64,000 nucleotides of DNA from Felixounavirus NRG857CP1: the sequence record OZ035806.1. One strand, written 5' to 3'. The notes beneath the pieces were generated by a model. The model was not told where the DNA came from. It did no database searches and was given only the letters and a program-made list of their open reading frames with translations. The position numbers were made by a program, and so were the translations under genes. This document shows positions 10,926 to 63,807 of the stretch, piece after piece; position 1 is the stretch's first letter; the number at the start of each line of letters is the position of its first letter.

Positions 10926-11726
10926 ATGAATATCGATGTAGAAAAGATGCTTGAAGAGAAAGGTGTTGATGAAGCATTCTTAATCAATGCCGTAGAAAGC
11001 ATGGCTATGATTCTTCGTGGTAATAACTACACAGAACAGTTTATGCCTGCAAGCTATAACTTGCCTGAAGACAAGTCTGATAACAGTGCTTTTGCAGAAC
11101 AGGTCAACATGATGCTTTGCGACAAAACACTTGCTTTAGCATCTATCGTTGTAGGTGTTGATGCTCTTGCAGAGTTCATTTTTTATGAGATGCAGAAAAA
11201 TGACTATATTGCCATGACCACTGAAGAAAAAGACTTGCTACTACTCGCAGGTAATGATGAACTAATTGACCTGTTAATTTCATCAACTAGTGCTGTTATG
11301 GCTGCTCTTGAGAAGCGCATGGAAGAGAAACTTTCACGATATGAAAAACTTGATTGGGGCGTAGAAGAATTAAACCCACGAATCAAAGAGATTATACAGC
11401 AAACTAAAGAGTCTTTGGAAGAAGCTGTTGAAAATGACTCTGTAGCTGATATAGAACCACTTCAGGTGAAAGTTGCGCTGATGATTCCAGCTATCTCCAC
11501 GATGATGAATATCGTTGCACTAATCCAACTTTCACAGATGATGGGTGTGAGTATTGAGTTCATTGAAGAGATGACTGGTGGCGTCAGTATGCAAGCAATC
11601 AATGATGTTTTGGTGAACATTGGTGCTTCCATCATTGAAGAGAAACTACGCATTAACTTCGGTGATGATTTTGTGAAGCAACTCTCAGCTATGGCTGAAA
11701 AAGAGTCTGCTGAGCAACTGAACTAA
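10926..11726 (+). CDS. hypothetical acidic protein
   Basis: 266 aa ORF; 1-nt spacing from upstream gene. Confidence 0.4.
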   Translation: MNIDVEKMLEEKGVDEAFLINAVESMAMILRGNNYTEQFMPASYNLPEDKSDNSAFAEQVNMMLCDKTLALASIVVGVDALAEFIFYEMQKNDYIAMTTEEKDLLLLAGNDELIDLLISSTSAVMAALEKRMEEKLSRYEKLDWGVEELNPRIKEIIQQTKESLEEAVENDSVADIEPLQVKVALMIPAISTMMNIVALIQLSQMMGVSIEFIEEMTGGVSMQAINDVLVNIGASIIEEKLRINFGDDFVKQLSAMAEKESAEQLN

Positions 11727-55917: not shown

Positions 55918-56289
55918 ATGAAAAACAGAACAAACAAAGGCCAGTTTAAAAAAGGCCAGTCTGGAAACCCATCTGGAAGACCAAAAGGCTCTCGTAACAA
56001 AAGCTCACTTGTAAAAGCTCAACTGACCATTGATAATTCTGCTGAGTTTGCTGCAAAGTTGTTTGAGGCGATTGTTACAAGGGACGCTGCTAAGCTTGCA
56101 GAGTTCGGTTTAAACACAGATGACGTAACCATCAAGAGCATGATTGAGGTCGGTAAAACTATCATGACTCACTCAGCAGGTGAGATGAAAGCAATTGCAG
56201 CAGATACTAAGAAAACCCCTGATAATGGTGGTCAGCCACAGACAGATAACAAACCAACGTTCTCTGCTGTAGCTACTCTCAAAAAATAA
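55918..56289 (+). CDS. hypothetical protein with basic N-terminus
   Basis: 123 aa; MKNRTNKGQFKKGQSGNPSGRPKGSRNKS. Confidence 0.4.
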   Translation: MKNRTNKGQFKKGQSGNPSGRPKGSRNKSSLVKAQLTIDNSAEFAAKLFEAIVTRDAAKLAEFGLNTDDVTIKSMIEVGKTIMTHSAGEMKAIAADTKKTPDNGGQPQTDNKPTFSAVATLKK

Positions 56290-56371: not shown

Positions 56372-57787
56372 ATGAGCGAGTTATTTAAACATGCGCACCT
56401 TCATGCAGGTCGAACTGAAAATGGTGCTGTAAACCATACTTCATCAATGTCTGCTCTGGTAGACTTCTACAAAGCCGCTGGCTCAAGCCGTAGCAATGTA
56501 GAAATCTTACCAGACCTGTTCTACAAAGCTTTGCGTGAGGATGTTGATGTTGCAGTTCGTATTTTACTGCATATGCGAGATGTACGAGAAGGCATGGGTG
56601 AGCGTAAAGCTTTCCGAACTGTTTTACTTCAAGCGATTGAAGATAAAGTTTTAGAACCTACACAGGTTCTTCGCATTATGGATAAGATTGCAGAACTTGG
56701 TCGTTTTGATGACTTCAAAATCTTCGTAGGTACTCGTTTCGAGACAGATGCCTTCAAACATTTAGAAGCAGCATTACTAGACCCTGCAACAGCAGGTTTA
56801 GCAGCTAAGTGGTTGCCACGAGTAAAACCACGCCACAAACAGTTTGTAAAACGTTTCTGTAAATTTGCAAACTTAAGCGAGAAGGAGTATCGCACACTGT
56901 TATCTGCACTGTCTGATACGGTTGAGCAAAAAATCTCTGCTAATGAGTTTGGTAAGATTGACTACAGCAAGATTCCTTCACTCGCTGCTGCACGTTACCA
57001 AAAACTCTTTAACCGTAAAGATGGAGAACGTTACAAAGCTTACATCGAATCACTCTCAAAGGGTGAGGCTAAGATTAACGCTGGTGCTGTTTACCCATAT
57101 GATGTGATTAAATCTATCAAGCATGGTAATGCAGATGTTGCTAATGAGCAGTGGAAAGCACTACCAAACTGGATGGCAGAAGGTGAGAACATCTTATGTA
57201 TGACTGATGTCTCAAGTTCAATGTCTTTGGTGAACTTTGGTTCAATTACTGCCCTTGATATTGGTGTATCACTTGCCTTGTATGTAGCAGAACGCAATAC
57301 AGGTTGCTTTAAAGATGAGTTAATGGTCTATTCAACAAACCCTCATTTCATTGAACTGAGTGGTGATTTACGAAACCGTCATCGTCAGGTAATGCGTCAT
57401 GTTGAATATGGTTCAACTAACTTACAAGCAGCTTTTGACCGTATTCTTGAAATAGGTAAGAGAAACAACTTGACTCAGAAAGATATGCCAAGTAAGCTTA
57501 TCATCTTCTCTGATATGGAGTTCAATCAGGTTGATGGTGCAAATGGTCGTACAAACTTTGAAGCAATTCAGAGTAAGTACAAAAAAGCTGGATACGAAAT
57601 GCCACAACTAGTATTCTGGTACTTAGCAAACCGTAATGGTACTTGCGAAGTATCTGTTAAGGATAATGGTGTAGCAATGGTATCAGGGTTCTCTCCAGCC
57701 ACTTTAAAAGCTCTGCTTGGTGGTGAGAAGTTTGACCCAATCAGCGTAATGCTCAAAGCAGTAATGATTGACCGTTACATCTGGTAA
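56372..57787 (+). CDS. vWA-like (MIDAS DxSxS) domain protein
   Basis: 471 aa; ILCMTDVSSSM resembles von Willebrand A MIDAS motif. Confidence 0.45.
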   Translation: MSELFKHAHLHAGRTENGAVNHTSSMSALVDFYKAAGSSRSNVEILPDLFYKALREDVDVAVRILLHMRDVREGMGERKAFRTVLLQAIEDKVLEPTQVLRIMDKIAELGRFDDFKIFVGTRFETDAFKHLEAALLDPATAGLAAKWLPRVKPRHKQFVKRFCKFANLSEKEYRTLLSALSDTVEQKISANEFGKIDYSKIPSLAAARYQKLFNRKDGERYKAYIESLSKGEAKINAGAVYPYDVIKSIKHGNADVANEQWKALPNWMAEGENILCMTDVSSSMSLVNFGSITALDIGVSLALYVAERNTGCFKDELMVYSTNPHFIELSGDLRNRHRQVMRHVEYGSTNLQAAFDRILEIGKRNNLTQKDMPSKLIIFSDMEFNQVDGANGRTNFEAIQSKYKKAGYEMPQLVFWYLANRNGTCEVSVKDNGVAMVSGFSPATLKALLGGEKFDPISVMLKAVMIDRYIW

Positions 57788-57952
57788 AAAGTTTTAAAAA
57801 GGGTATTGACAATGTGTTTAATACCCTTTAATATGTCCTACATAGAAACGAAATGAGAGCTTTTCTAAGATACTGAAAAATATTTTAAAAAAGTTCTTGA
57901 CAACCACTAAAAAATAATGTTAAAGTGGTTACATAGAGTTTGAAAAGTTTAT

Positions 57953-58029
57953 CTCTGTTTAGCTCAGCTTGGTAGAGCGTTCCGTTTGGGGCGGTAAGGC
58001 CGGAGGTTCAAGTCCTCCAACAGAGACCA
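57953..58029 (+). tRNA. tRNA-Pro (anticodon TGG)
   Basis: manual fold: acceptor CTCTGTT/AACAGAG, D-arm GCTCAGCTTGGTAGAGC, anticodon loop TTTGGGG, T-loop GGAGGTTCAAGTCCTCC, CCA encoded. Confidence 0.7.
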
Positions 58030-58036
58030 AATTAAT

Positions 58037-58114
58037 GTTCCAGTAGACAAAACGGTAAAGTCACCACTCTTTCAAAGTGGATATTTGAGGGTTCAAATCC
58101 CTTCTGGAACGCCA
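58037..58114 (+). tRNA. tRNA-Glu (anticodon TTC)
   Basis: acceptor GTTCCAG/CTGGAAC; anticodon arm CCACT-CTTTCAA-AGTGG; T-loop GAGGGTTCAAATCCCTT. Confidence 0.7.
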
Positions 58115-58121
58115 GTTTTGA

Positions 58122-58194
58122 CAGAAGACCAATTACAGCAAACTTAATCTTATTCATCTGAAGCTAAATCGGACAAAGAAGAGATTTGGTCTGG
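58122..58194 (+). repeat. inter-tRNA spacer element A (CAGAAGACC..GGTCTGG family)
   Basis: 5' box CAGAAGACCAATTACAGCAA, 3' box TTGGTCTGG; arms AGACCAA/TTGGTCT can pair. Confidence 0.5.
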
Positions 58195-58205
58195 TCATTA
58201 AGAAT

Positions 58206-58282
58206 TGCGGGTATAGAGAAAGGGCGTCTCACATGTCTCATTAGCATGGTATCGGCAGGTTCGACTCCTGCACCCGCCTCCA
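58206..58282 (+). tRNA. tRNA-Met or Ile2 (anticodon CAT)
   Basis: T8A9, D-stem GAGA/TCTC, anticodon arm CATGT-CTCATTA-GCATG, T-loop GCAGGTTCGACTCCTGC; acceptor base 1-72 ambiguous. Confidence 0.55.
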
Positions 58283-58288
58283 ATTTTG

Positions 58289-58348
58289 CAGAAGACCGTA
58301 TGCAGCAATAAACTACTTTTTGCGGATAAAAGAAAAAACACGGTCTGG
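58289..58348 (+). repeat. inter-tRNA spacer element B (CAGAAGACC..GGTCTGG family)
   Basis: CAGAAGACCGTATGCAGCAA...ACACGGTCTGG; arm pair GACCGT/ACGGTC covaries relative to element A. Confidence 0.5.
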
Positions 58349-58359
58349 CAATGTATTAA

Positions 58360-58436
58360 GGTTAGGAAGCACATAAGGTATGTGCGGTCGCCTGTTAAGC
58401 GAATGGCACAGGGTTCGAATCCCTGACTAACCGCCA
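58360..58436 (+). tRNA. tRNA-Asn (anticodon GTT)
   Basis: acceptor GGTTAGG/ACTAACC, anticodon loop CTGTTAA, T-loop CAGGGTTCGAATCCCTG, CCA encoded. Confidence 0.7.
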
Positions 58437-58445
58437 AATTTAAAT

Positions 58446-58533
58446 GTGTCGTTATCCCGTAGATGGTAGCGGTGGGGACTGTAAATCCCTTGTCATTGAG
58501 ACTCGGTAGGTTCGACTCCTACACGGCACACCA
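58446..58533 (+). tRNA. tRNA-Tyr (anticodon GTA), long variable arm
   Basis: anticodon arm GGGGA-CTGTAAA-TCCCT; long variable arm; T-loop GTAGGTTCGACTCCTAC; CCA encoded. Confidence 0.7.
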
Positions 58534-58539
58534 AATAAA

Positions 58540-58616
58540 GGTTATGTAGTTTAACTGGATAAAATACTCCCCTGTCACGGGAGATGATGTGAGTTCAAGT
58601 CTCATCGTAACCGCCA
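58540..58616 (+). tRNA. tRNA-Asp (anticodon GTC)
   Basis: acceptor GGTTATG/CGTAACC, anticodon arm CTCCC-CTGTCAC-GGGAG, T-loop GTGAGTTCAAGTCTCAT. Confidence 0.7.
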
Positions 58617-58677
58617 ATTTTGAGAGGGCTATTTAGCTCCTCCCTTAAAGAGTTCTTACGAGTATTCTTTAAAGGAG

Positions 58678-58754
58678 CAGAAGACCAATTACAGCAAGTA
58701 CGTATGATATTTTCAAGCCAATTTAATTTTGAAAAAATTTAAAACTTGGTCTGG
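58678..58754 (+). repeat. inter-tRNA spacer element C1 (CAGAAGACC..GGTCTGG family)
   Basis: CAGAAGACCAATTACAGCAAG...AAACTTGGTCTGG. Confidence 0.5.
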
Positions 58755-58767
58755 CTCAACAAATTTA

Positions 58768-58899
58768 CAGAAGACCGTTTACAGCAAAACTTAAACAATC
58801 TATTTCTCCGGTAAAGAAAAGGCGAAGGTTCGATTCCTTCACTCGGCAGATGTCGAGTTGGTGTAATGGTAGCACTTAAGATGATAAACAACGGTCTGG
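58768..58899 (+). repeat. inter-tRNA spacer element C2, containing tRNA-like fragments
   Basis: CAGAAGACCGTTTACAGCAAAAC...AACAACGGTCTGG; internal GAAGGTTCGATTCCTTC T-arm-like and GTCGAGTTGGTGTAATGGTAGCAC D-arm-like pieces in non-canonical order. Confidence 0.45.
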
Positions 58900-58900
58900 T

Positions 58901-59044
58901 AATTATCTTTGTAGATAAGTTATTAAGCTTACCTGTGAGTATGCGACCACAAAGGGTGAAAGGGTAAATTCTAGATTTAAACCCAACAAGGCACATCGCT
59001 ACAGACCTTAAGCAAGTCTGGGTAGCTTATCTACAAAGATAATT
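58901..59044. repeat. element bounded by a perfect 19-bp inverted repeat
   Basis: left AATTATCTTTGTAGATAAG, right CTTATCTACAAAGATAATT, about 106 bp between. Confidence 0.55.
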
Positions 59045-59048
59045 TAAT

Positions 59049-59124
59049 GGAAGTGTAGCAGAATGGTGATGCGGCAGACTTTTAATCTGACAGGCGATGG
59101 GTTCGAATCCCTCCACTTCTACCA
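59049..59124 (+). tRNA. tRNA-Lys (anticodon TTT)
   Basis: acceptor GGAAGTG/CACTTCT, anticodon loop CTTTTAA, T-loop TGGGTTCGAATCCC; paralogous to tRNA at 60758. Confidence 0.6.
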
Positions 59125-59128
59125 ATAT

Positions 59129-59205
59129 GGTTCAGTCGCAGATAAGGTAATGCAGGGGTCTCATAAGCCCTATGAATGTGGGTTCGATTCCCATCTGAAC
59201 CTCCA
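59129..59205 (+). tRNA. tRNA-Met (anticodon CAT), three G-C pairs in anticodon stem
   Basis: acceptor GGTTCAG/CTGAACC, anticodon arm GGGGT-CTCATAA-GCCCT, T-loop GTGGGTTCGATTCCCAT. Confidence 0.6.
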
Positions 59206-59207
59206 AT

Positions 59208-59282
59208 TGTGGGTTAGCATAAATGGTAATGCAAACGGCTGATAACCGTTAGAAGAGGGTTCGATACCCTCACCTACAACCA
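59208..59282 (+). tRNA. tRNA-Ile (anticodon GAT)
   Basis: D-arm GCATAAATGGTAATGC, anticodon arm AACGG-CTGATAA-CCGTT, T-loop GAGGGTTCGATACCCTC. Confidence 0.7.
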
Positions 59283-59296
59283 ATTTCAATAAAGTT

Positions 59297-59326
59297 GTTG
59301 ACATTAAGATGTGACCACTTTATAGT
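59297..59326 (+). promoter_or_regulatory. strong sigma70-like promoter inside tRNA cluster
   Basis: TTGACA-17 nt-TATAGT (GTTGTTGACATTAAGATGTGACCACTTTATAGTAACT). Confidence 0.55.
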
Positions 59327-59649
59327 AACTGAAAATGATTCAGCATATGTATAATTCAAACACCAATACATGAGTGTTAGACGTAACACAATGTGGGGAA
59401 ATTTGTTGTACATGTTCTGAATAGTTTTCGTTGCGTAGCGTCTATTTTGCAAATTTAAAATAAATGCAAACGACAATGTTTTTCTGGCAGTAGCTTGATA
59501 GGCTAAACACCAGTGAGGTCTTCCAATCCCTCATCAAAGAATTTGGCGTACTCGCCCACGGTATGATTAATAAGGTGGGCAACATTCTAAAGGGTATCCC
59601 TTATGGGGCTTGGCTTAAATGCAATGAGTACCCTTTAAAATGTTAATTA

Positions 59650-59731
59650 CGGGGCGTATCTCAGCGGTCTTCTAAACCGCCGTTAACCGAGTAAGTGGAG
59701 TATGCGGGTTCGAGTCCTGCCGCCTCGACCA
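59650..59731 (+). tRNA. atypical tRNA-like gene, possibly tRNA-Arg (TCT)
   Basis: canonical acceptor CGGGGCG/CGCCTCG, T-loop GCGGGTTCGAGTCCTGC, hairpin GCGGT-CTTCTAA-ACCGC; D region does not fold canonically. Confidence 0.4.
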
Positions 59732-59746
59732 ATTTTGGATGAAATC

Positions 59747-60094
59747 ATGAAAACTTGTATTAGGTGCAAACTTAGCAAGGATGAAAGTGATTTCTACATG
59801 AAAGATGGTAGGAGAACTCATTCATACTGTAAAAAGTGTGTTAATGAGCAAACCATAGAAAGACAAAGAGCACTTAAACTTTCAGCTATTGAGTACAAAG
59901 GTGGGGTTTGTCATGATTGTGGTAAAAGGTATCATCCAGCAGTGTATGACTTCCATCATTTGAATCCTTCAGATAAAGATTTTAACATTGGTCATAGAAA
60001 AAGTCTTAAGTTCTCTCAGGAGCTAAAGGACGAACTTGACAAATGTGTTTTGCTATGTTCAAATTGCCATAGGGTAAGACATGCAAAGTATTAG
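59747..60094 (+). CDS. HNH endonuclease embedded in tRNA cluster
   Basis: CIRC..CKKC zinc finger, HH..N..H core, CSNCH; start at ATG just after tRNA (track ORF begins 59702 inside the tRNA). Confidence 0.7.
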   Translation: MKTCIRCKLSKDESDFYMKDGRRTHSYCKKCVNEQTIERQRALKLSAIEYKGGVCHDCGKRYHPAVYDFHHLNPSDKDFNIGHRKSLKFSQELKDELDKCVLLCSNCHRVRHAKY

Positions 60095-60231
60095 TTAGCA
60101 GATTGCTTAGACGACCTTATCGGGTCTCCGTGTAAGGAGGTGGTCTGTATCTCATGTTTTCCAGAACATGTAAATAATCTGAGAAGGGGCTTTACAGTGT
60201 TGAGATAATACGGTAAGCTTCGAATTATAGT

Positions 60232-60314
60232 ATGGGACGATGTTAAGACTCTAAGGCATGAGCAACGGCCTCCAAAACCGTTTCAAAGGGGTTCAACTCC
60301 TCCGTCCCATGCCA
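60232..60314 (+). tRNA. tRNA-Trp (anticodon CCA), extended D region
   Basis: acceptor ATGGGAC/GTCCCAT, anticodon arm ACGGC-CTCCAAA-ACCGT, T-loop GGGGTTCAACTCCTCC; D region about 7 nt longer than usual. Confidence 0.45.
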
Positions 60315-60327
60315 AAGTCTTATTAGG

Positions 60328-60415
60328 GGTAGGTAGCGGCTAATGGCAGCCAAACAGTCTTGAAAACTGTTGCCACTGTAGAGATACGGTGAGGGTTCGA
60401 CTCCTTTACTTACCG
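60328..60415 (+). tRNA. tRNA-Ser (anticodon TGA), long variable arm
   Basis: anticodon arm ACAGT-CTTGAAA-ACTGT; about 20-nt variable arm; T-loop GAGGGTTCGACTCCTTT. Confidence 0.7.
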
Positions 60416-60572
60416 CCTAATAAGATTTAAAGCCAAGCTTCATTCGGATGTTGCTTTGGTATACCGCGTGTATTGTTGTACGCACTGATAAAGCACCTAG
60501 TAGGTGTCACGGAGAAGAGATAATATCAAGCTCTCCAAAGGTTCTAGTCACCGGATTAAACAAGACTATGCA

Positions 60573-60596
60573 AAGACCTTTTTAGGTCTTTTTAGA
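60573..60596 (+). terminator. terminator-like hairpin in tRNA cluster
   Basis: AAAGACC-TTTTTA-GGTCTTTTT. Confidence 0.4.
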
Positions 60597-60672
60597 GGGC
60601 TTCTAAGGTTATTACAGCTTGTTGTGGAACCTTGTTGCTTAGGTTCTTAGAAGTTCTCTAAAAAGATTTAAT

Positions 60673-60750
60673 GGGAGATTGACGGTAATTGGTAAACCTA
60701 CCATCCTTAGAAGTTGGTGTTTGAGGGTTCGAATCCCTTGTCTCCTACCA
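60673..60750 (+). tRNA. tRNA-Leu (anticodon TAG), short variable arm
   Basis: acceptor GGGAGAT/GTCTCCT, anticodon arm CCATC-CTTAGAA-GTTGG, T-loop GAGGGTTCGAATCCCTT, A73. Confidence 0.5.
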
Positions 60751-60757
60751 AATTAAT

Positions 60758-60833
60758 GCAGGTGTAGCAAAATGGTTATGCGGCTGACTCTTAATCAGTA
60801 AGACGATGGGTTCAATTCCCTCCACCTGTACCA
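60758..60833 (+). tRNA. tRNA-Lys (anticodon CTT)
   Basis: acceptor GCAGGTG/CACCTGT, anticodon arm GCTGA-CTCTTAA-TCAGT, T-loop TGGGTTCAATTCCC. Confidence 0.65.
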
Positions 60834-60839
60834 AAAAAT

Positions 60840-60915
60840 GGGGTCATAGTTTATATGGTTAAAATTCGAGTTTTGCAAACTTGGGAACTGAGTTCAATTC
60901 TCAGTGACTCCACCA
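60840..60915 (+). tRNA. tRNA-Ala (anticodon TGC)
   Basis: acceptor GGGGTCA/TGACTCC with G3-U70 pair (Ala identity element); anticodon arm CGAGT-TTTGCAA-ACTTG; T-loop CTGAGTTCAATTCTCAG. Confidence 0.75.
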
Positions 60916-60921
60916 ATTAGT

Positions 60922-60996
60922 GCATCCATAGTTTAAACGGGAAAATTACAGTCTTCCAAACTGAGGTTGAGGGTTCGATTCCCTCTGGATGCTCCA
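60922..60996 (+). tRNA. tRNA-Gly (anticodon TCC)
   Basis: acceptor GCATCCA/TGGATGC, anticodon arm ACAGT-CTTCCAA-ACTGA, T-loop GAGGGTTCGATTCCCTC. Confidence 0.75.
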
Positions 60997-61003
60997 AATT
61001 AAT

Positions 61004-61079
61004 GCTCCTATCGTATAATTGGCTATTACGGTTGCCTTGTAAGCAACTTATCAGGGTTCGAATCCTTGTGGGAGCACCA
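61004..61079 (+). tRNA. tRNA-Thr (anticodon TGT)
   Basis: acceptor GCTCCTA/TGGGAGC, anticodon arm GTTGC-CTTGTAA-GCAAC, T-loop CAGGGTTCGAATCCTTG. Confidence 0.75.
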
Positions 61080-61175
61080 ATTCAGAGGTCAAGTGAAAGA
61101 CCGCTTTGAGTCAACTGAAGACCGTAACAAATTCCACGGAGTTGAGTTAGCGGCACAACTTCAGACCTCTTTCAC

Positions 61176-61250
61176 ACTCGCTTAGTTTATATGGTAAAAC
61201 ACCACCCTTACAAGATGAAGAAAAAGGTTCAAGTCCTTTAGTGAGTACCA
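61176..61250 (+). tRNA. tRNA-Val (anticodon TAC), weak anticodon stem
   Basis: acceptor ACTCGCT/AGTGAGT, D-arm GTTT..AAAC, anticodon loop CTTACAA, T-loop AAAGGTTCAAGTCCTTT. Confidence 0.5.
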
Positions 61251-61251
61251 T

Positions 61252-61329
61252 GTTCCAGTATCCCAATTGGCAGAGGATGCAAGCTCAAACCTTGTATTAG
61301 TGACGGTTCGAATCCGTCTTGGAACACCA
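61252..61329 (+). tRNA. tRNA-Leu (anticodon CAA), short variable arm
   Basis: acceptor GTTCCAG/TTGGAAC, anticodon arm GCAAG-CTCAAAC-CTTGT, T-loop GACGGTTCGAATCCGTC, A73. Confidence 0.5.
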
Positions 61330-61334
61330 ATTTT

Positions 61335-61410
61335 GCAGGATTAGTTCAAATGGATAGAGCAACAGTCTACGAAACTGTTAATAGGGGTTCGAATCCCTTA
61401 TCCTGCGCCA
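61335..61410 (+). tRNA. tRNA-Arg (anticodon ACG)
   Basis: acceptor GCAGGAT/ATCCTGC, anticodon arm ACAGT-CTACGAA-ACTGT, T-loop GGGGTTCGAATCCC. Confidence 0.75.
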
Positions 61411-61428
61411 GATAAGCAAGAGGAATTT

Positions 61429-61671
61429 ATGCAAACATTAATCGTCGTTGAACATGAAAATCCCAATAGTATTGAGTTTGTAAGGGTTCCCACTATAGAT
61501 ACCCACATTTTCTTAAAAGTCGGATGGGAATGCGACCCAATAAAAGTAGAAAGATTTATTGGTCATTGCTTTTGTGGAAGACAACTTAAAAGTGTCAATT
61601 TTGAGACAATGTTACCAGAAAGCTCAGAAACAAGTAATAATGCTTACCTCCTTACGAGGGTTAGACAATGA
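61429..61671 (+). CDS. hypothetical small protein in tRNA cluster
   Basis: 80 aa ORF with AGGAAT RBS-like sequence. Confidence 0.35.
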   Translation: MQTLIVVEHENPNSIEFVRVPTIDTHIFLKVGWECDPIKVERFIGHCFCGRQLKSVNFETMLPESSETSNNAYLLTRVRQ

Positions 61672-62225
61672 GATACTTAAAATATGCTTCATGGATTTTC
61701 TTAGCTTTGCTAGAACCACTTGCAGCAATACTAGCAGTTATCTTAGCACCTTTCGTAGTTCCATTCTACAGTGAGAAGAAAGGACATCTACCTTTTGGAT
61801 TCAGATGGATGGAGACCTATGACAACCCAATTGATGGTGATGAAGGTCACGTTAAAAGATGGGCTAATATTAGATGGATTGGTAAACTAGGTGTCTACAT
61901 GCAAAGAGTTGGATGGCTCTGGAGAAACAAAGCTTATAACTTCTCTTACCATGTGTTAGGAAGAGATGTAAAAGATGTTACTAAGTGGAAAGGTAATATC
62001 AACGTAAGTTCTAACCCTGAAGATAATCAGACTGGTTATCTCCTAATGTGGAACAGGAATGCTTGGGGATTATTCGCTTTTATCCCATCAATTAAAATCT
62101 TTGGTAAACAATTTTACTGGAGAATTTATATTGGATGGAAACTAAAAAGCGTTGTCCCAGAAGAAAGAGCATTCTCAAGGGAAAGAGTTATGTTGGCATT
62201 CTTTATTCATCCACTAAGAAAGTAA
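61668..62225 (+). CDS. hypothetical membrane-associated protein in tRNA cluster
   Basis: 185 aa; N-terminal hydrophobic helices; Trp-rich. Confidence 0.4.
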   Translation: MRYLKYASWIFLALLEPLAAILAVILAPFVVPFYSEKKGHLPFGFRWMETYDNPIDGDEGHVKRWANIRWIGKLGVYMQRVGWLWRNKAYNFSYHVLGRDVKDVTKWKGNINVSSNPEDNQTGYLLMWNRNAWGLFAFIPSIKIFGKQFYWRIYIGWKLKSVVPEERAFSRERVMLAFFIHPLRK

Positions 62226-62233
62226 AGATTTAA

Positions 62234-62309
62234 AGGGGATTAGTTTACAAGGTTAAAACCTCGGTCTTTGAAATCGAAGAAGTTGGTTCAATTCCAACAT
62301 CCCCCGCCA
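62234..62309 (+). tRNA. tRNA-Gln (anticodon TTG)
   Basis: anticodon arm TCGGT-CTTTGAA-ATCGA, D-arm GTTT..AAAC, T-loop GTTGGTTCAATTCCAAC, CCA encoded. Confidence 0.65.
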
Positions 62310-62311
62310 AT

Positions 62312-62390
62312 GCTCCATTACTCCAATTGGCAGAGAGGCCAGACTTAAAATCTGTGTTATGTATCGGTTCGAATCCGATATGGAGTACCA
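62312..62390 (+). tRNA. tRNA-Leu (anticodon TAA), short variable arm
   Basis: acceptor GCTCCAT/ATGGAGT, anticodon loop CTTAAAA, T-loop ATCGGTTCGAATCCGAT, A73. Confidence 0.55.
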
Positions 62391-62395
62391 AATTT

Positions 62396-62471
62396 AGCGG
62401 TATAGCATAACTGGCAATGCAGCAGTCTCTGAAGCTGTCTTATTAAGGTTCAAATCCTTATGCCGCTGCCA
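62396..62471 (+). tRNA. tRNA-Gln (anticodon CTG)
   Basis: acceptor AGCGGTA/TGCCGCT, D-arm GCAT..ATGC, anticodon arm GCAGT-CTCTGAA-GCTGT, T-loop TAAGGTTCAAATCCTTA. Confidence 0.6.
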
Positions 62472-62502
62472 CTTCTAAGGATTCTTACGAGAGTCCTTAA
62501 AT

Positions 62503-62578
62503 GTGGCCTTATCATAAATGGTAATGACCCATGCTGTGAACATGGTCTATACGGGTTCAAATCCCGTAGGTCACCCCA
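62503..62578 (+). tRNA. tRNA-His (anticodon GTG)
   Basis: anticodon arm CCATG-CTGTGAA-CATGG, T-loop ACGGGTTCAAATCCCGT, discriminator C73. Confidence 0.7.
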
Positions 62579-62583
62579 ATTTA

Positions 62584-62658
62584 TAGTCCAAGTAGCTTAT
62601 ATGGTTAAAGCGCGTGTCTGAAAAACATGAGAAGAGGGTTCAAATCCCACTGGACTAC
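62584..62658 (+). tRNA. tRNA-Phe (anticodon GAA)
   Basis: acceptor TAGTCCA/TGGACTA, anticodon arm CGTGT-CTGAAAA-ACATG, T-loop GAGGGTTCAAATCCCAC; junction between acceptor and D-arm ambiguous. Confidence 0.6.
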
Positions 62659-62676
62659 CAATTTCAAAGGTGCTTA

Positions 62677-63411
62677 ATGAAAGAGATGACAGAACAAGGT
62701 AAGGAGATTTTTAATCTCTTAAAAACTGGTAAAGGGTTTTCTAACCCCCTTATTACTGGTGCAGCAGTTCTCGGTGGAACCGTAGCTGCCTCTACATCAC
62801 TTGTAAGCTCTATTAGCTCTGTATCAGACCCTACAGTAAAGGATAAGCTTGTTGCTGCTGGACTTACAACAGTCCTTCTAAACAGCTTTACAACAAGCCT
62901 TACAAGCACTACAGCAACTACTAAAACTCTGACAGACTATGGTCAAAAGTCTATTGATGAGTTTTCATCACGTATGCAGGTAGCAAAGGGGTATTCCAAT
63001 GTTATGGGTGCAGCAGGAGAACAAGTTGGTTGTACACCATTCAGTGGTATCATGGGTGTTGCTACAGAGTATGGTCAAAAAGCTATTGATATGATGAACA
63101 GTACACTAGATAGTGTTAATGGTGTGTTAAGTGACTTGCAAGATGCTATTGATAAGGGTCTTGATACTGTTTCTGATTTAGCTAATCAAGCTGTTAGTAA
63201 GATTAATGAAGGTATTTCAAAGATTACAGCTTATGCAGATGAAGTTGTGCAGATGATTGAAGAAGAAGCTGCCCTTATTGCAGAGTACCTTAAAACGAAT
63301 ATCAATGGGTTCTTAGCAGGCATCTTACCAGACTGGTTTGATGATGCCTGTAAAACTGGTGTAATTGACACTATTGCAACACCAGAAATGAAGAGCGCAT
63401 TACAGAAATAA
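62677..63411 (+). CDS. hypothetical Ser/Thr/Ala-rich protein
   Basis: start at ATG after tRNA-Phe (track ORF begins at GTG 62614 inside the tRNA). Confidence 0.4.
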   Translation: MKEMTEQGKEIFNLLKTGKGFSNPLITGAAVLGGTVAASTSLVSSISSVSDPTVKDKLVAAGLTTVLLNSFTTSLTSTTATTKTLTDYGQKSIDEFSSRMQVAKGYSNVMGAAGEQVGCTPFSGIMGVATEYGQKAIDMMNSTLDSVNGVLSDLQDAIDKGLDTVSDLANQAVSKINEGISKITAYADEVVQMIEEEAALIAEYLKTNINGFLAGILPDWFDDACKTGVIDTIATPEMKSALQK

Positions 63412-63412
63412 T

Positions 63413-63505
63413 GGAAGATTAACCCTAAAAGGTAAGGGAGCAGTTTGCTAAACTGCCAGTAGCTGAGAAATCGGTGTACCAGTTCAAGTCTGGTATCTTC
63501 CTCCA
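63413..63505 (+). tRNA. tRNA-Ser (anticodon GCT), long variable arm
   Basis: acceptor GGAAGAT/ATCTTCC, anticodon arm GCAGT-TTGCTAA-ACTGC, long variable arm, T-loop ACCAGTTCAAGTCTGGT. Confidence 0.7.
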
Positions 63506-63509
63506 ATTT

Positions 63510-63585
63510 GAATCCGTGACAGAAATGGCTATGTGCCTGTCTGCAAAACAGGTTTATAAGGGTTCGAGTCCCTTCGGATTCTCCA
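63510..63585 (+). tRNA. tRNA-Cys (anticodon GCA)
   Basis: acceptor GAATCCG/CGGATTC, anticodon arm CCTGT-CTGCAAA-ACAGG, T-loop AAGGGTTCGAGTCCCTT, U73. Confidence 0.7.
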
Positions 63586-63690: not shown

Positions 63691-63807
63691 ATACTTTATA
63701 AGAAGCCTTATACAGTATGTCTCTGACGTACATTGTGGTTTCTCCTTGACGGTCTCTGTACCGTCTTTTTTAAGGGGAAACATGATTAACTATTTGGAGA
63801 AAACATA

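What the first reader, a model, noticed from the sequence alone, without database searches (positions are those of the whole stretch)
57953..63585. Near-complete tRNA repertoire (about 27 genes) with identity elements intact
Manual folding finds tRNAs for Pro, Glu, Met(x2), Asn, Tyr, Asp, Lys(x2), Ile, Arg(x2), Trp, Ser(x2), Leu(x3), Ala, Gly, Thr, Val, Gln(x2), His, Phe and Cys. Known identity elements are present: G3-U70 in tRNA-Ala, C73 in tRNA-His, U73 in tRNA-Cys, A73 in the Leu candidates. A set this large suggests translation tuned for independence from host tRNA supply, possibly against tRNA-cleaving defence nucleases, though that role is inference.
Basis: partly seen in the sequence, partly recalled or inferred. 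Interest (0 to 1): 0.5.

Follow-up and report, generated by a model that had tools for sequence, protein, structure and literature searches.

The report
Felix O1-type phage tRNA gene array
This is the well-known cluster of about 25 transfer-RNA genes carried by Felix O1-like phages of E. coli and Salmonella, so the finding is real but ordinary; the gaps between the tRNA genes, however, hold small structured RNAs that look like partners of an RNA-binding protein encoded just upstream.

Summary
ARAGORN finds 25 tRNA genes at 57953-63585, all on the + strand and none elsewhere in the 64 kb. Rfam confirms 23 of them. "Arg no. 2" (59650-59731) lacks a D arm. "Trp" (60232-60314) has an 8-bp acceptor stem.

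The window is 100% identical to Felixounavirus NRG857CP1 and about 96% identical to Salmonella phage Felix O1, whose tRNA cluster was published in 2010. The array is therefore already known.

The phage set follows its A/T-rich codon usage: the U34 isoacceptor is present in all seven non-arginine four-codon boxes. It could read roughly 75-89% of phage codons.

The anti-nuclease role remains inference. Loops of classical nuclease targets match the host's, and Bas63 tRNA genes are mostly dispensable in laboratory strains.

Beyond the finding, the gene just upstream (56372-57787) has a Ro60 fold. Four array spacers carry a conserved stem plus a UUACAGCAA motif. One of them contains a circularly permuted tRNA-like domain, as in bacterial YrlA Y RNAs. 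The short ones resemble dictyostelid Class I RNAs. These spacer RNAs appear to be undescribed.

The parts
55918..56289 (+). DUF5681 gene; conserved left neighbour of the module
   Evidence: Pfam PF18932, E 2e-14. Same position in Felix O1, Sf14, L007 and L008.
56372..57787 (+). Ro60-fold (TROVE-like helical ring plus vWA) RNA-binding protein; Pfam DUF2828 + DUF7788
   Evidence: Pfam. PHROG 850 'RNA-binding protein', E 1e-182. AlphaFold model pLDDT 88, pTM 0.87. The top 11 Foldseek PDB hits are all Ro60/TROVE, E 6e-8 to 3e-6.
57897..57926 (+). sigma-70-like promoter in front of the first tRNA (TTGACA-18-TAAAGT, TG extended)
   Evidence: Consensus scan, 10 of 12 matches. A consensus match only.
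57953..58029 (+). tRNA-Pro(UGG)
   Evidence: ARAGORN. Rfam 57.7 bits. C1:G72 and A73.
58037..58114 (+). tRNA-Glu(UUC)
   Evidence: ARAGORN. Rfam 60.6 bits.
58119..58197 (+). spacer element el1: terminal stem, AGA/G bulges, helix AGACCAA/UUGGUCU, motif UUACAGCAA
   Evidence: Repeat family D10. Fold. Model R1, 17.2 bits.
58206..58282 (+). tRNA(CAU), called 'Met'; atypical (U1xC72, U73, U37)
   Evidence: ARAGORN. Rfam 28.5 bits, just under the cut-off of 29.
58286..58351 (+). spacer element el2 (helix AGACCGU/ACGGUCU, motif AUGCAGCAA)
   Evidence: R1 25.4 bits, E 0.0012, the top hit in the window. Outer stem UGC/GCA here against UAC/GUA in Felix O1.
58360..58436 (+). tRNA-Asn(GUU)
   Evidence: ARAGORN. 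Rfam 48 bits.
58446..58533 (+). tRNA-Tyr(GUA), long variable arm
   Evidence: ARAGORN. Rfam only 29.6 bits, to the tRNA-Sec model. tRNAscan called it 'pseudo' in Felix O1 (PMC3185647).
58540..58616 (+). tRNA-Asp(GUC)
   Evidence: ARAGORN. Rfam 60.7 bits.
58675..58757 (+). spacer element el3
   Evidence: R1 22 bits, E 0.0086.
58765..58902 (+). spacer element el4: same stem and motif, enclosing a circularly permuted tRNA-like domain (core 58821-58877: T arm, 7-bp acceptor-like hairpin, D arm)
   Evidence: Fold. Model R2, trained only on other phage lineages: 37.6 bits, E 4.8e-7, gap-free. Compensatory change in the hairpin between Felix O1-like phages and Sf14/EP1.
58901..59044 (+). long-stem structured spacer RNA
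   Evidence: MFE z-score -5.9. 11 pairs with compensatory changes across 5 phages.
59049..59124 (+). tRNA-Lys(UUU)
   Evidence: ARAGORN. Rfam 54.4 bits.
59129..59205 (+). tRNA(CAU), second 'Met' (U73)
   Evidence: ARAGORN. Rfam 54.3 bits.
59208..59282 (+). tRNA-Ile(GAU)
   Evidence: ARAGORN. Rfam 63.4 bits.
59298..59326 (+). strongest sigma-70-like promoter of the region (TTGACA-17-TATAGT)
   Evidence: 11 of 12 matches. A consensus match only.
59650..59731 (+). non-canonical tRNA-like 'Arg(UCU)': no D arm, 20-nt variable insert, intact CUUCUAA loop, T arm, A73-CCA
   Evidence: Rfam 31.7 bits, with alignment. Rejected by ARAGORN. Canonical Arg-UCU sits at this place in Sf14 and EP1; Erwinia phage Tian and Yersinia phage P778 also encode a canonical Arg-UCU elsewhere in their arrays. 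Two compensatory stem changes in L007.
59702..60094 (+). HNH homing endonuclease gene (the likely true start is ATG 59747)
   Evidence: PHROG 2255, E 3e-42. Pfam HNH weak. Annotated in Felix O1.
60232..60314 (+). non-canonical tRNA-like 'Trp(CCA)': 8-bp acceptor, 4-bp T stem, G73-CCA
   Evidence: Rfam tRNA-Sec model, 23 bits. MFE z-score -2.8. Conserved with compensatory changes in Sf14, L007 and Yersinia phage P778.
60328..60417 (+). tRNA-Ser(UGA); the only gene without an encoded CCA
   Evidence: ARAGORN. Rfam 31.1 bits.
60582..60671 (+). 26-bp-arm hairpin in a spacer
   Evidence: Inverted repeat I1. MFE z-score -4.6.
60673..60750 (+). tRNA-Leu(UAG), short variable loop
   Evidence: ARAGORN. 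Rfam 40 bits.
60758..60833 (+). tRNA-Lys(CUU)
   Evidence: ARAGORN. Rfam 56.9 bits.
60840..60915 (+). tRNA-Ala(UGC), G3:U70
   Evidence: ARAGORN. Rfam 56.9 bits.
60922..60996 (+). tRNA-Gly(UCC)
   Evidence: ARAGORN. Rfam 59.6 bits.
61004..61079 (+). tRNA-Thr(UGU)
   Evidence: ARAGORN. Rfam 58.4 bits. Anticodon stem differs from E. coli thrU at 28:42.
61084..61170 (+). structured spacer
   Evidence: MFE z-score -3.7.
61176..61250 (+). tRNA-Val(UAC)
   Evidence: ARAGORN. Rfam 55.8 bits.
61252..61329 (+). tRNA-Leu(CAA), short variable loop
   Evidence: ARAGORN. Rfam 44 bits.
61335..61410 (+). tRNA-Arg(ACG)
   Evidence: ARAGORN. Rfam 61.4 bits.
61429..61671 (+). small ORF (phrog_14202, unknown function)
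61668..62225 (+). DUF7338 gene, annotated as a membrane protein in relatives
   Evidence: Pfam E 8e-62. Annotation in relatives.
62234..62309 (+). tRNA-Gln(UUG)
   Evidence: ARAGORN. Rfam 56.6 bits.
62312..62390 (+). tRNA-Leu(UAA), short variable loop
   Evidence: ARAGORN. Rfam 47.5 bits.
62396..62471 (+). tRNA-Gln(CUG)
   Evidence: ARAGORN. Rfam 58.7 bits.
62503..62578 (+). tRNA-His(GUG), C73, no encoded G-1
   Evidence: ARAGORN. Rfam 53.3 bits.
62585..62660 (+). tRNA-Phe(GAA)
   Evidence: ARAGORN. Rfam 45 bits.
62677..63411 (+). DUF7217 gene (Felix O1 ORF49 homologue). The start is taken as ATG 62677, not the mechanical GTG 62614 that overlaps tRNA-Phe.
   Evidence: Pfam E 5e-87, aligned from residue 29. 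Same 735-nt length as Felix O1 ORF49. Gp49 is listed among the virion proteins in PMC3185647.
63413..63505 (+). tRNA-Ser(GCU)
   Evidence: ARAGORN. Rfam 46.2 bits.
63510..63585 (+). tRNA-Cys(GCA), U73
   Evidence: ARAGORN. Rfam 56.4 bits.
63748..63771 (+). terminator-like hairpin plus T run after the last tRNA
   Evidence: Consensus scan. A consensus match only.

Best explanation
This is the tRNA gene array of a Felix O1-like myovirus (genus Felixounavirus), which lies between a Ro60-fold gene and the DUF7217 and terminase genes. It holds 25 canonical tRNA genes for 19 amino acids and two conserved non-canonical tRNA-like genes (UCU and CCA anticodons). A homing-endonuclease gene, three other ORFs and structured spacer RNAs are interspersed. 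Most likely (inferred) the array is transcribed from host-type promoters as long precursors. Host RNase P and 3'-processing enzymes would then cut these, and host synthetases would charge the products. The resulting tRNAs would add to the cellular pool a broad, almost minimal decoding set. That set has a U34 tRNA in each of the seven non-arginine four-codon boxes and one tRNA per two-codon box. It fits the phage's A/T-rich codons and would keep phage translation going late in infection as host tRNA supply falls or is damaged. Shown here: the genes, their structures and identity elements, their conservation, and the fit to codon usage. Inferred: expression, processing, charging and the selective benefit.
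For: Gene calls come from ARAGORN and Rfam. The region is 100% identical to Felixounavirus NRG857CP1 and 95-97% identical to Felix O1 and about 180 other phage records. Gene order matches Felix O1, D4, Sf14 and EP1, and an equivalent array occupies the same genome position in Erwinia phage Tian. Acceptor-end features fit E. coli synthetase identity rules as I know them (Giege et al. 1998): Pro C1:G72/A73, Ala G3:U70, Cys U73, Gly U73, Thr G1:C72/C2:G71, Gln G73 with a weak 1:72 pair, Leu A73. CCA is encoded in 24 of 25 genes. For codon usage, NNA codons of the seven boxes served by U34 tRNAs are 1.85-3.4 times over-represented relative to E. coli, and TTA, CAA and AAG are also enriched. The set reads 48 or 49 of the 61 sense codons, which is 75% (strict wobble) to about 89% (E. 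coli-type cmo5U wobble, excluding Gly GGU) of phage codons. Promoter-like sites lie at 57897 and 59298 and a terminator-like site follows the last gene. Published work agrees: Felix O1 has 22 tRNAs, 7 of them predicted to affect translation rate (PMC3185647), and Sf14 late genes have their best tRNA adaptation index with the phage pool (PMC12482277).
Against: No expression, processing or aminoacylation data exist for this phage. Several members are atypical for E. coli: His lacks G-1, both CAU tRNAs have U73, the three Leu tRNAs lack the long variable arm, Ser(GCU) has U73, and tRNAscan flagged Tyr and His as 'pseudo' in Felix O1. A simple codon-by-codon test is weak (Mann-Whitney p = 0.13 for the phage/host ratio and 0.04 for phage RSCU). 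Bas63 tRNA genes were mostly dispensable on four K-12 strains (PMC11482910).
Confidence: 0.75

Rival explanations
1. The main selective value of the array is counter-defence. The phage tRNAs replace host tRNAs that are cleaved by anticodon-arm nucleases (PrrC, PARIS AriB, retron-Eco7 PtuAB, P2 OLD, Schlafen-type nucleases), either because they resist cleavage or simply by replenishing the pool.
For: Phage tRNAs with anticodons UUU (Lys), GUA (Tyr) and UGU (Thr) rescue cells from AriB, PtuAB and P2-OLD (PMC12445682, PMC11464382, PMC11555353), and all three anticodons are present here. The phage tRNA bodies are only about 55-70% identical to their E. coli counterparts, and every anticodon stem compared differs. 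Thr(UGU) has U28:A42 where E. coli thrU has C28:G42. That is the change PMC12445682 describes as altering the CNG cleavage motif, although there it was insufficient on its own. The breadth of the set suits an unpredictable range of nucleases. The neighbouring Ro60-like protein of Bas63 counters a defence system, ppl (PMC11482910).
Against: The anticodon loops of Lys-UUU, Tyr, Asn, Asp, Thr-UGU and Arg-ACG are identical to the host's (against Table 8 of PMC12482277). That study rejected nuclease escape for the closely related Sf14 set. Nothing in this window tests resistance. The U34-rich composition is explained equally well by codon usage or by minimal decoding.
Confidence: 0.3
2. The array is largely evolutionary baggage. 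On this view the tRNA genes were accumulated and shuffled by recombination and homing endonucleases and give little present benefit, and several are pseudogenes.
For: The HNH gene content of the array varies between close relatives: three in Felix O1, one here, and different sites in EP1. L007 carries only 16 tRNAs. Several members are atypical. Bas63 tRNA genes are mostly non-essential in the laboratory (PMC11482910).
Against: The same set and order are kept across genera at 85% nucleotide identity (Felixounavirus, Mooglevirus, Suspvirus), and equivalent arrays occur in Erwinia and Yersinia phages. Even the two odd elements retain their structure through compensatory changes. Phage genomes are under strong size constraint.
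Confidence: 0.07
3. The tRNAs mainly widen host range, by making translation independent of differences between the tRNA pools of Escherichia, Salmonella, Shigella and Citrobacter.
For: Near-identical arrays occur in phages isolated on several enterobacterial genera.
Against: These hosts have almost the same tRNA sets and codon usage. The Sf14 analysis excluded host-range expansion (PMC12482277).
Confidence: 0.05

Closest known systems
tRNA cluster of Salmonella phage Felix O1 and E. coli phage wV8 (Whichard et al. 2010, PMC3185647; Villegas et al. 2009, PMC2674420)
   Same: Same genes in the same order at about 96% nucleotide identity, with the same flanking genes. ARAGORN gives the identical 25-gene set on the Felix O1 locus.
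   Different: Felix O1 has three HNH genes inside the array and this phage has one. The published counts (22 and 23, from tRNAscan-SE) are lower than ARAGORN's 25.
Shigella phage Sf14 (Mooglevirus), 26 tRNAs (PMC12482277)
   Same: Same array at about 85% identity, with the same anticodons and nearly the same anticodon loops.
   Different: Sf14 has a canonical tRNA-Arg(UCU) where this phage has the D-arm-less version followed by an HNH gene.
tRNA regions of coliphages T5 and T4
   Same: These are large clustered tRNA sets in virulent coliphages. From my own knowledge, T5's region is interspersed with homing-endonuclease genes and T4's cluster also encodes two small stable RNAs of unknown function. 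T5 tRNA-Lys and tRNA-Tyr neutralise PARIS and retron-Eco7 (PMC11464382, PMC11555353).
   Different: There is no sequence relationship beyond tRNA features, and no defence-evasion data exist for the Felix O1 group. T4 and T5 have no adjacent Ro60-like gene that I know of.
Bacterial and phage Ro60-Y RNA modules: Salmonella rsr-yrlBA, mycobacteriophage YrlA, Thermus phage phiLo Ro60-Yrl1/2 (PMC4201824, PMC12135203)
   Same: A Ro60-fold protein gene sits next to several small RNAs whose ends pair in a bulged stem beside a short conserved single-stranded motif. At least one RNA has a tRNA-like domain in which the acceptor stem is closed by a loop.
   Different: The protein matches Pfam DUF2828/DUF7788, not TROVE. 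The motif is UACAGCAA rather than GNCGAA. The window's element does not match Rfam YrlA, and its relatives reach only 41-42 bits against a cut-off of 69. The RNAs lie inside a tRNA array.
Dictyostelid Class I RNAs (Rfam RF01414; PMC7919456)
   Same: Both have a short terminal stem that begins with G paired to the C of a 3' CUG. The motif (C)CUUACAGCAA lies directly after the 5' strand, with the same invariant C6, C9, A10 and A11, and the interior is variable.
   Different: The kingdoms differ and there is no DUSE promoter. The phage copies have an extra outer stem and are longer. Rfam scores are below the cut-off of 41.5 (18 bits here, 25-27 bits in L009 and L011). The known direct binder in Dictyostelium is the RRM protein Rnp1A, not a Ro60-like protein.

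Membership tests
Felix O1-type (Ounavirinae) phage tRNA array | Cluster of canonical tRNA genes called by standard predictors | tested here: met
   25 by ARAGORN. 24 Rfam hits at the gathering score: 23 of the 25 ARAGORN genes plus the Arg-like element.
Felix O1-type (Ounavirinae) phage tRNA array | Nucleotide homology and the same gene order as the Felix O1 array | tested here: met
   96% identity over 95% of the region. Identical ARAGORN gene list.
Felix O1-type (Ounavirinae) phage tRNA array | Position between the DUF5681/DUF2828 genes and the DUF7217, terminase and portal genes | tested here: met
   The left flank and DUF7217 lie in the window. The terminase follows in the relatives but lies beyond the end of the window.
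Functional elongator tRNAs of an E. coli host | Cloverleaf with 7-bp acceptor, D arm, 5-bp anticodon stem with 7-nt loop, T arm and 3' CCA | tested here: met
   Met for the 25. Not met for 59650-59731, which has no D arm, nor for 60232-60314, which has an 8-bp acceptor and a C.A mismatch closing the loop.
Functional elongator tRNAs of an E. coli host | Isotype identity elements recognised by the host synthetases | tested here: inconclusive
   Present for Ala, Cys, Leu (A73), Pro, Gly, Thr, Gln, Asp, Asn, Glu, Lys, Phe, Val, Ile and Tyr. Atypical for His (no G-1), both CAU tRNAs (U73) and Ser-GCU (U73). The identity rules come from my own knowledge (Giege et al. 1998).
Functional elongator tRNAs of an E. 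coli host | Expression, processing and aminoacylation in infected cells | not testable with these tools
   Needs tRNA-seq or acid-gel Northern blots.
Anti-nuclease replacement tRNAs (as in T5 against PARIS and retron-Eco7) | Same anticodon as the host tRNA that the nuclease targets | tested here: met
   Lys-UUU, Tyr-GUA and Thr-UGU are present.
Anti-nuclease replacement tRNAs (as in T5 against PARIS and retron-Eco7) | Anticodon stem-loop differences from the host tRNA that confer resistance | tested here: inconclusive
   The loops are identical for Lys, Tyr and Thr (PMC12482277). The stems differ, and Thr has C28U/G42A. The effect on cleavage is unknown.
Anti-nuclease replacement tRNAs (as in T5 against PARIS and retron-Eco7) | Rescue of infection or growth in the presence of the nuclease | not testable with these tools
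   Needs genetics.
Ro60 / Y RNA (YrlA-type) module | Protein with the Ro60 fold (helical-repeat ring plus vWA domain) | tested here: met
   Model pLDDT 88. The top 11 PDB hits are all Ro60/TROVE, full length, TM 0.48-0.66.
Ro60 / Y RNA (YrlA-type) module | Sequence membership of the TROVE domain family (Pfam PF05731) | tested here: not met
   Pfam gives DUF2828 + DUF7788, and VWA_2 weakly. A profile search of PDB sequences finds Ro60 only at E = 0.76.
Ro60 / Y RNA (YrlA-type) module | Adjacent RNA with paired ends, a conserved motif and a tRNA-like domain whose acceptor stem is closed by a loop | tested here: met
   el4 58765-58902. The core at 58821-58877 is hit by R2 at E 4.8e-7.
Ro60 / Y RNA (YrlA-type) module | Match to Rfam YrlA (RF02553) at its gathering score of 69 bits | tested here: not met
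   No hit in the window. Related elements in L011 and L009 score 42.1 and 40.9 bits (E about 1e-7) but stay below the cut-off.
Ro60 / Y RNA (YrlA-type) module | Physical binding of the RNA by the protein | not testable with these tools
   Needs RIP/CLIP or EMSA.
Dictyostelid Class I RNA (RF01414) | Terminal stem starting with G paired to the C of a 3' CUG(U), followed by the 11-nt motif CCUUACAGCAA | tested here: met
   AAG-ACCAA-UUACAGCAA ... UUGGU-CUG in el1 and el3, with close variants in el2 and el4.
Dictyostelid Class I RNA (RF01414) | Rfam gathering score of 41.5 bits, length 42-65 nt, upstream DUSE promoter | tested here: not met
   18 bits for el2 and 12.8 bits for el4. The elements are 66-138 nt long, and the promoter context is bacterial.

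The most novel reading that the evidence does not exclude
The array is not only a tRNA operon. Its spacers encode a family of Y-RNA-like non-coding RNAs: one YrlA-type RNA with a circularly permuted tRNA-like domain and three short ones. These would be released by tRNA processing and bound by the Ro60-fold DUF2828 protein encoded immediately upstream. In Bas63 the homologous protein is reported to counter the ppl defence system. The same protein-plus-RNA module sits beside tRNA arrays in unrelated large phages. Its RNA signature is a G-started stem, the UUACAGCAA motif and a CUG end, which is the signature of dictyostelid Class I RNAs. Those eukaryotic RNAs, so far considered unique to social amoebae, may therefore be Y-RNA-like partners of eukaryotic DUF2828 proteins. 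In addition, the D-arm-less UCU element and the 8-bp-acceptor CCA element may be working non-canonical tRNAs that decode AGA/AGG and UGG.
Probability: 0.45. Interest if true: 0.72.

Novelty: already known. Interest (0 to 1): 0.25.

Why it matters
As a tRNA repertoire this adds nothing new. The Felix O1 cluster has been in the literature since 2010, and the exact sequence is a public, though unannotated, record. Its value lies in what the array contains besides tRNAs. If the spacer RNAs are partners of the Ro60-fold protein, Felix O1-like phages would offer a tractable E. coli system for studying Ro60/Y RNA function, and Bas63 is already in the BASEL collection. That would put the speculation in the PhageMaP preprint onto defined RNA candidates. 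It could also link an orphan class of abundant amoebal RNAs to a protein family. The two conserved non-canonical tRNA-like genes would test how far bacterial translation tolerates a tRNA without a D arm.

Tried and rejected
1. Could 59650-60314 be one tRNA gene split by an HNH-containing intron? Rejected. Each flanking element has its own complementary acceptor strands and its own CCA, and Sf14 has the Trp-like element without the HNH gene.

2. Rfam YrlA on the window's el4: no hit even in a 191-nt search. Membership is therefore not claimed. The link rests on architecture, on sub-threshold YrlA hits in relatives and on my own model R2.

3. Sequence-only searches of the Ro60-like protein against PDB gave nothing for the single sequence and E = 0.76 for a profile. 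Only the predicted fold gave a clear answer.

4. A loose regular-expression and complementarity scan for the spacer element has background hits at scores 13-15, so it was replaced by calibrated covariance models.

5. MAFFT alignments of whole elements were out of register (A5, A8). I used fixed-length constructs with trimmed interiors instead, so the models are built on edited sequences. The covariation count is partly circular, because the 3' strands were chosen by complementarity.

6. The R1 hit at 11384-11420 lies inside a reading frame and was judged to be chance.

7. I tried to check whether Dictyostelium DDB_G0281243, which was pulled down with a Class I RNA, is a DUF2828 protein. The AlphaFold library was not available, Avesson et al. 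2011 is not held, and no other paper names the gene.

8. I tried to fetch Bas63 by a guessed accession and got a different phage. The equation of Bas63 gp130 with ORF 56372-57787 therefore rests on the preprint's description (a Ro60-like gene directly upstream of the tRNAs in a Felixounavirus).

9. A Watson-Crick-only codon test was weak. A wobble-aware view is more informative but cannot separate codon matching from a minimal decoding set.

Full report
**1. The observation**

ARAGORN on the full 64-kb window tRNA genes. All lie on the + strand between 57953 and 63585, and there are none elsewhere. Lowering its threshold to 90% adds nothing. At 80% it adds only obvious antisense shadows, an undetermined call at 60227-60314 and another at 62967-63049.

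Rfam's tRNA model passes its curated cut-off for 23 of the 25, and also for one extra site at 59650-59728 (31.7 bits against 29). The two ARAGORN genes that fall short in Rfam are:
- Tyr 58446 (29.6 bits, to the tRNA-Sec model);
- the first CAU tRNA at 58206 (28.5 bits).

I read the acceptor ends and loops from ARAGORN's structures.
- G3:U70 in Ala;
- C73 in His;
- U73 in Cys;
- A73 in all three Leu tRNAs.

Twenty-four of the 25 genes encode the 3' CCA.

**2. What the two extra candidates are**

"Arg no. 2" (59650-59731) has a 7-bp acceptor stem, A73-CCA, a good T arm and an anticodon hairpin with the loop CUUCUAA. In the Rfam alignment it has 4 nt where the model has the 15-nt D arm, and a 20-nt insert in the variable region.
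- Sf14 and EP1 have a normal tRNA-Arg(UCU) at this position in the array. Erwinia phage Tian and Yersinia phage P778 also encode a normal tRNA-Arg(UCU), elsewhere in their differently ordered arrays.
- The D-arm-less form is shared by Felix O1, D4 and the more distant contig L007, where the anticodon stem carries two compensatory G-C to U-A changes.

"Trp" (60232-60314) has an 8-bp acceptor stem, G73-CCA, a 4-bp T stem and the loop CUCCAAA closed by a C.A mismatch.
- Its fold is more stable than all 200 shuffles (z = -2.8).
- It is kept in Felix O1, Sf14, L007 and Yersinia phage P778, with compensatory changes in the acceptor, anticodon and T stems.

Both are therefore conserved, structured, tRNA-derived RNAs. 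Whether they work as tRNAs cannot be decided here.

**3. What the region is**

The 5.7-kb region is 100% identical to the unannotated record OZ035796.1 (Felixounavirus NRG857CP1). It is 95-97% identical to Salmonella phage Felix O1 and about 180 other records from Escherichia, Salmonella and Shigella phages.

The Felix O1 locus gives the same 25 genes in the same order with ARAGORN. Sf14 (Mooglevirus) and EP1 (Suspvirus) keep the array at about 85% identity. Erwinia phage Tian (Kolesnikvirus) has a 26-gene array in the same genome position.

The literature already describes this cluster:
- 22 tRNAs in Felix O1 (PMC3185647);
- 23 in wV8 (PMC2674420);
- 26 in Sf14 (PMC12482277).

The finding is therefore real and already known.

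**4. Anatomy**

Promoter-like sites precede the first gene (57897-57926) and follow tRNA-Ile (59298-59326, 11 of 12 consensus positions). A terminator-like hairpin follows tRNA-Cys. These are consensus matches only.

The array is interrupted by four ORFs:
- one HNH homing-endonuclease gene (59702-60094);
- a small ORF (61429-61671);
- a DUF7338 gene (61668-62225);
- a DUF7217 gene (62677-63411).

Felix O1 has three HNH genes in its array and EP1 has one at a different place, so endonuclease content is polymorphic.

Several tRNAs are unusual for an E. coli host:
- the three Leu tRNAs have short variable loops (75-76-nt bodies);
- His has no encoded G-1;
- both CAU tRNAs have U73;
- the first CAU tRNA has U37 and an unpaired 1:72.

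**5. Function: codon usage**

I compared 90 long ORFs of the window (17,512 codons) with 42 annotated E. coli K-12 genes (14,748 codons).

In every non-arginine four-codon box (Pro, Ser, Leu, Ala, Gly, Thr, Val) the phage carries the U34 isoacceptor. The matching NNA codons are 1.85-3.4 times over-represented in the phage. TTA (2.4 times), CAA (1.5 times) and AAG (1.5 times) are also served.

A plain Watson-Crick test is weak (p = 0.13 for the phage/host ratio, 0.04 for phage RSCU). In two-codon boxes the phage prefers NNU, which the same G34 tRNA reads by wobble.

Under standard wobble the set reads 75% of phage codons. With E. coli-type cmo5U wobble my script gave 92%, but that wrongly credits Gly-UCC with GGU. 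Corrected, the figure is about 89%, or about 92% if the two odd elements work.

Codons not covered:
- UGG;
- AGA/AGG (AGA is 9.9 times enriched);
- AUA;
- GGU/GGC;
- CGG;
- the NNC codons of family boxes.

There is also no initiator-type tRNA.

One U34 tRNA per family box is also what a minimal decoding set looks like. The pattern therefore fits both codon matching and general supply, which was the conclusion reached for Sf14 (PMC12482277).

**6. Function: defence**

Phage tRNAs do neutralise tRNA nucleases in other systems. Lys-UUU works against PARIS AriB, Tyr-GUA against retron-Eco7 PtuAB, and Thr-UGU against P2 OLD (PMC11464382, PMC11555353, PMC12445682). All three anticodons are present here.

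The loops of these tRNAs, and of Asn, Asp and Arg-ACG, equal the host loops listed in PMC12482277. That study rejected nuclease escape.

The bodies are nevertheless only about 55-70% identical to E. coli thrU, tyrU, glyT, lysT and valT, and all the anticodon stems differ. Thr(UGU) has U28:A42 where thrU has C28:G42. PMC12445682 reports that this change alters the OLD cleavage motif, though it was not sufficient alone.

In Bas63, a Felixounavirus, the tRNA genes were mostly non-essential on four K-12 strains (PMC11482910).

The defence role is therefore possible and untested. I rank it second.

**7. The upstream gene**

ORF 56372-57787 matches Pfam DUF2828 and DUF7788 and PHROG 850, 'RNA-binding protein'. 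Sequence searches against PDB were not significant.

An AlphaFold model built from 40 homologues is confident (pLDDT 88, pTM 0.87). Its top 11 Foldseek hits in the PDB are all Ro60/TROVE proteins, aligned over the full length (E 6e-8 to 3e-6). They include the Ro60 of Thermus phage phiLo.

The PhageMaP preprint reports that Bas63 gp130 is Ro60-like, lies directly upstream of the tRNAs and counters the ppl defence. It speculates that some annotated tRNAs might be Y RNAs (PMC11482910).

**8. Structured RNAs in the spacers**

Four spacers carry a repeated element (repeat family D10). It consists of:
- an outer 3-4-bp stem;
- an AGA bulge opposite a single G;
- a 7-8-bp helix AGACCNN/NNGGUCU;
- the single-stranded motif (U/A)UACAGCAA directly after the 5' strand.

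The helix tips and outer stems covary between copies and between phages. For example, el2 has UGC/GCA here against UAC/GUA in Felix O1.

The fourth element (58765-58902) encloses, in this order, a variable-arm-like hairpin, a T arm (GAAGGUUCGAUUCCUUC), a 7-bp hairpin and a D arm (GUGUAAUGGUAGCAC). That is a tRNA circularly permuted at the anticodon loop, which is the architecture of bacterial YrlA Y RNAs (PMC4201824). The 7-bp hairpin shows a U-A to A-U compensatory change in Sf14 and EP1.

**9. The same module elsewhere**

The exact motif pairs occur at matching places in Felix O1, D4, Sf14, EP1 and L007. They are absent from Erwinia phage Tian, which has a tRNA array but no DUF2828 gene.

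Homologues of the protein (48-55% identity) in Yersinia phage P778 (L008) and in two phage contigs of about 143-149 kb (L009, L011) are also followed by tRNA arrays. There too the protein gene is followed by elements of the same design but with different helix sequences.

Rfam scores on those elements:
- tRNA-like elements against YrlA: 42.1 bits in L011 and 40.9 bits in L009 (E about 1e-7; cut-off 69);
- short elements against Dicty_Class_I_RNA: 25-27 bits (E 0.01-0.03; cut-off 41.5).

I built two covariance models from L008, L009 and L011 only.
- R1 (stem plus motif) returns el2 (E 0.0012), el3 (E 0.0086) and el1 as the top three hits in the whole window on both strands. It finds nothing in Tian, L012 or 50 kb of E. 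coli.
- R2 (permuted T arm, hairpin, D arm) has 58821-58877 as its best hit in 167 kb (37.6 bits, E 4.8e-7, no gaps). Its weaker hits are junctions between neighbouring tRNA genes.

**10. Resemblance to Class I RNAs**

Dictyostelid Class I RNAs are defined by (PMC7919456):
- a 6-bp terminal stem whose first G pairs with the C of a 3' CUGU;
- an 11-nt motif CCUUACAGCAA next to the 5' strand, with U3, C6, C9, A10 and A11 nearly invariant;
- a variable interior.

The phage elements read AAG-ACCAA-UUACAGCAA ... UUGGU-CUG. This is the same layout with the same invariant positions.

Class I RNAs were reported as unique to Dictyostelia. One of four proteins pulled down with a Class I RNA, DDB_G0281243, has no known function (bioRxiv 10.1101/2020.04.05.026054). 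I could not check whether it belongs to DUF2828.

The window's own Rfam scores are low (18 bits for el2). I therefore report a resemblance and a testable hypothesis, not membership.

**11. Other structured spacers**

Spacer 58901-59044 folds into a 25-bp stem (z = -5.9) that keeps 11 pairs through compensatory changes in five phages. Spacers 60582-60671 and 61084-61170 are also unusually stable (z = -4.6 and -3.7). Their roles are unknown.

**12. Verdict**

The finding is a correct description of a known feature. Interest is low for the tRNA set itself.

The set is broad and matched to phage codons, but independence from the host is incomplete and the anti-nuclease role is untested.

The most novel thing in the region is the set of Y-RNA-like spacer RNAs next to a Ro60-fold gene. 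As far as the searchable literature shows, only their possible existence has been speculated on.

Noticed in passing
window 56372-57787 (+): The gene directly upstream of the array is annotated only as DUF2828/DUF7788 or 'RNA-binding protein'. It has a confidently predicted Ro60 (TROVE + vWA) fold, and its top 11 PDB fold matches are all Ro60 proteins.
   Followed up: yes
window 58119-58197, 58286-58351, 58675-58757, 58765-58902 (+): Four spacer elements share a bulged terminal stem (AGA-AGACC / GGUCU-G) and the motif UUACAGCAA. The fourth holds a circularly permuted tRNA-like domain (T arm, closed acceptor-like hairpin, D arm) as in YrlA Y RNAs. Models trained only on other phage lineages find them at E 0.001 to 5e-7.
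   Followed up: yes
window el1-el4; L009 8534-8670; L011 7552-7690: The short elements have the defining layout of dictyostelid Class I RNAs: a G-started stem, the CUUACAGCAA motif and a 3' CUG. Copies in related phages hit Rfam RF01414 at 25-27 bits (E 0.01-0.03). Class I RNAs were thought to be unique to social amoebae.
   Followed up: partly
L008 7001-8437; L009 7001-8440; L011 6001-7431; L010 6001-7437: DUF2828 (Ro60-fold) genes in unrelated phages (Yersinia P778, two contigs of about 143-149 kb, Vibrio phi-pp2) also lie next to or near tRNA arrays, with similar stem-plus-motif RNAs beside them. One homologue (L012) has neither tRNAs nor the motif nearby.
   Followed up: partly
window 59650-59731 (+): A tRNA-like gene with a UCU anticodon loop has no D arm and a 20-nt variable insert. 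It replaces the canonical tRNA-Arg(UCU) of Sf14 and EP1 and sits just upstream of an HNH gene. Its anticodon stem shows two compensatory changes in L007. AGA is the codon most enriched in the phage (9.9 times).
   Followed up: yes
window 60232-60314 (+): A tRNA-like gene with a CCA anticodon has an 8-bp acceptor stem, a 4-bp T stem and G73-CCA. It is conserved with compensatory changes as far as Yersinia phage P778, and is replaced by an HNH gene in phage EP1.
   Followed up: yes
window 60673-60750, 61252-61329, 62312-62390; 62503-62578; 58206-58282: All three tRNA-Leu genes lack the long variable arm typical of bacterial tRNA-Leu. tRNA-His has T at -1, so it has no encoded G-1. The first CAU tRNA has U37, an unpaired 1:72 and U73. 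One of the two CAU tRNAs might be an AUA-reading tRNA-Ile2, but this cannot be decided here.
   Followed up: partly
window 58901-59044; 60582-60671; 61084-61170 (+): Three further spacers fold far better than shuffled controls (z = -5.9, -4.6, -3.7). The first keeps a 25-bp stem through 11 compensatory pairs in five phages and contains a small hairpin CAGAC-CUUAAGCAA-GUCUG that recalls the motif.
   Followed up: partly
window 59702-60094; L001 3885-4370 and 6168-6581; L005 about 4850-5500: The number and position of HNH homing-endonuclease genes inside the array differ between close relatives: one here, three in Felix O1, and another site in EP1.
   Followed up: partly
window 62614-63411 (+): The mechanical ORF starts at a GTG inside tRNA-Phe. 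The real start is probably ATG 62677, which gives the 735-nt length of Felix O1 ORF49. Felix O1 Gp49 is listed among the virion proteins found by proteomics (PMC3185647), so a structural-protein gene appears to sit inside the tRNA array.
   Followed up: partly
window 61004-61079 (+): tRNA-Thr(UGU) has U28:A42 where E. coli thrU has C28:G42. PMC12445682 links this substitution to an altered P2-OLD cleavage motif in phage rescue tRNAs.
   Followed up: partly
window 61300-61362, 62361-62422 and similar sites: Junctions between adjacent tRNA genes (the T arm and 3' acceptor strand of one, then the 5' acceptor strand and D arm of the next) score as weak matches to the permuted tRNA-like model. This suggests how such a domain could arise within an array.
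   Followed up: no
window 11384-11420 (+): A weak match to the stem-plus-motif model (15 bits, E 0.44) lies inside what reads as a coding frame. It is probably chance.
   Followed up: partly
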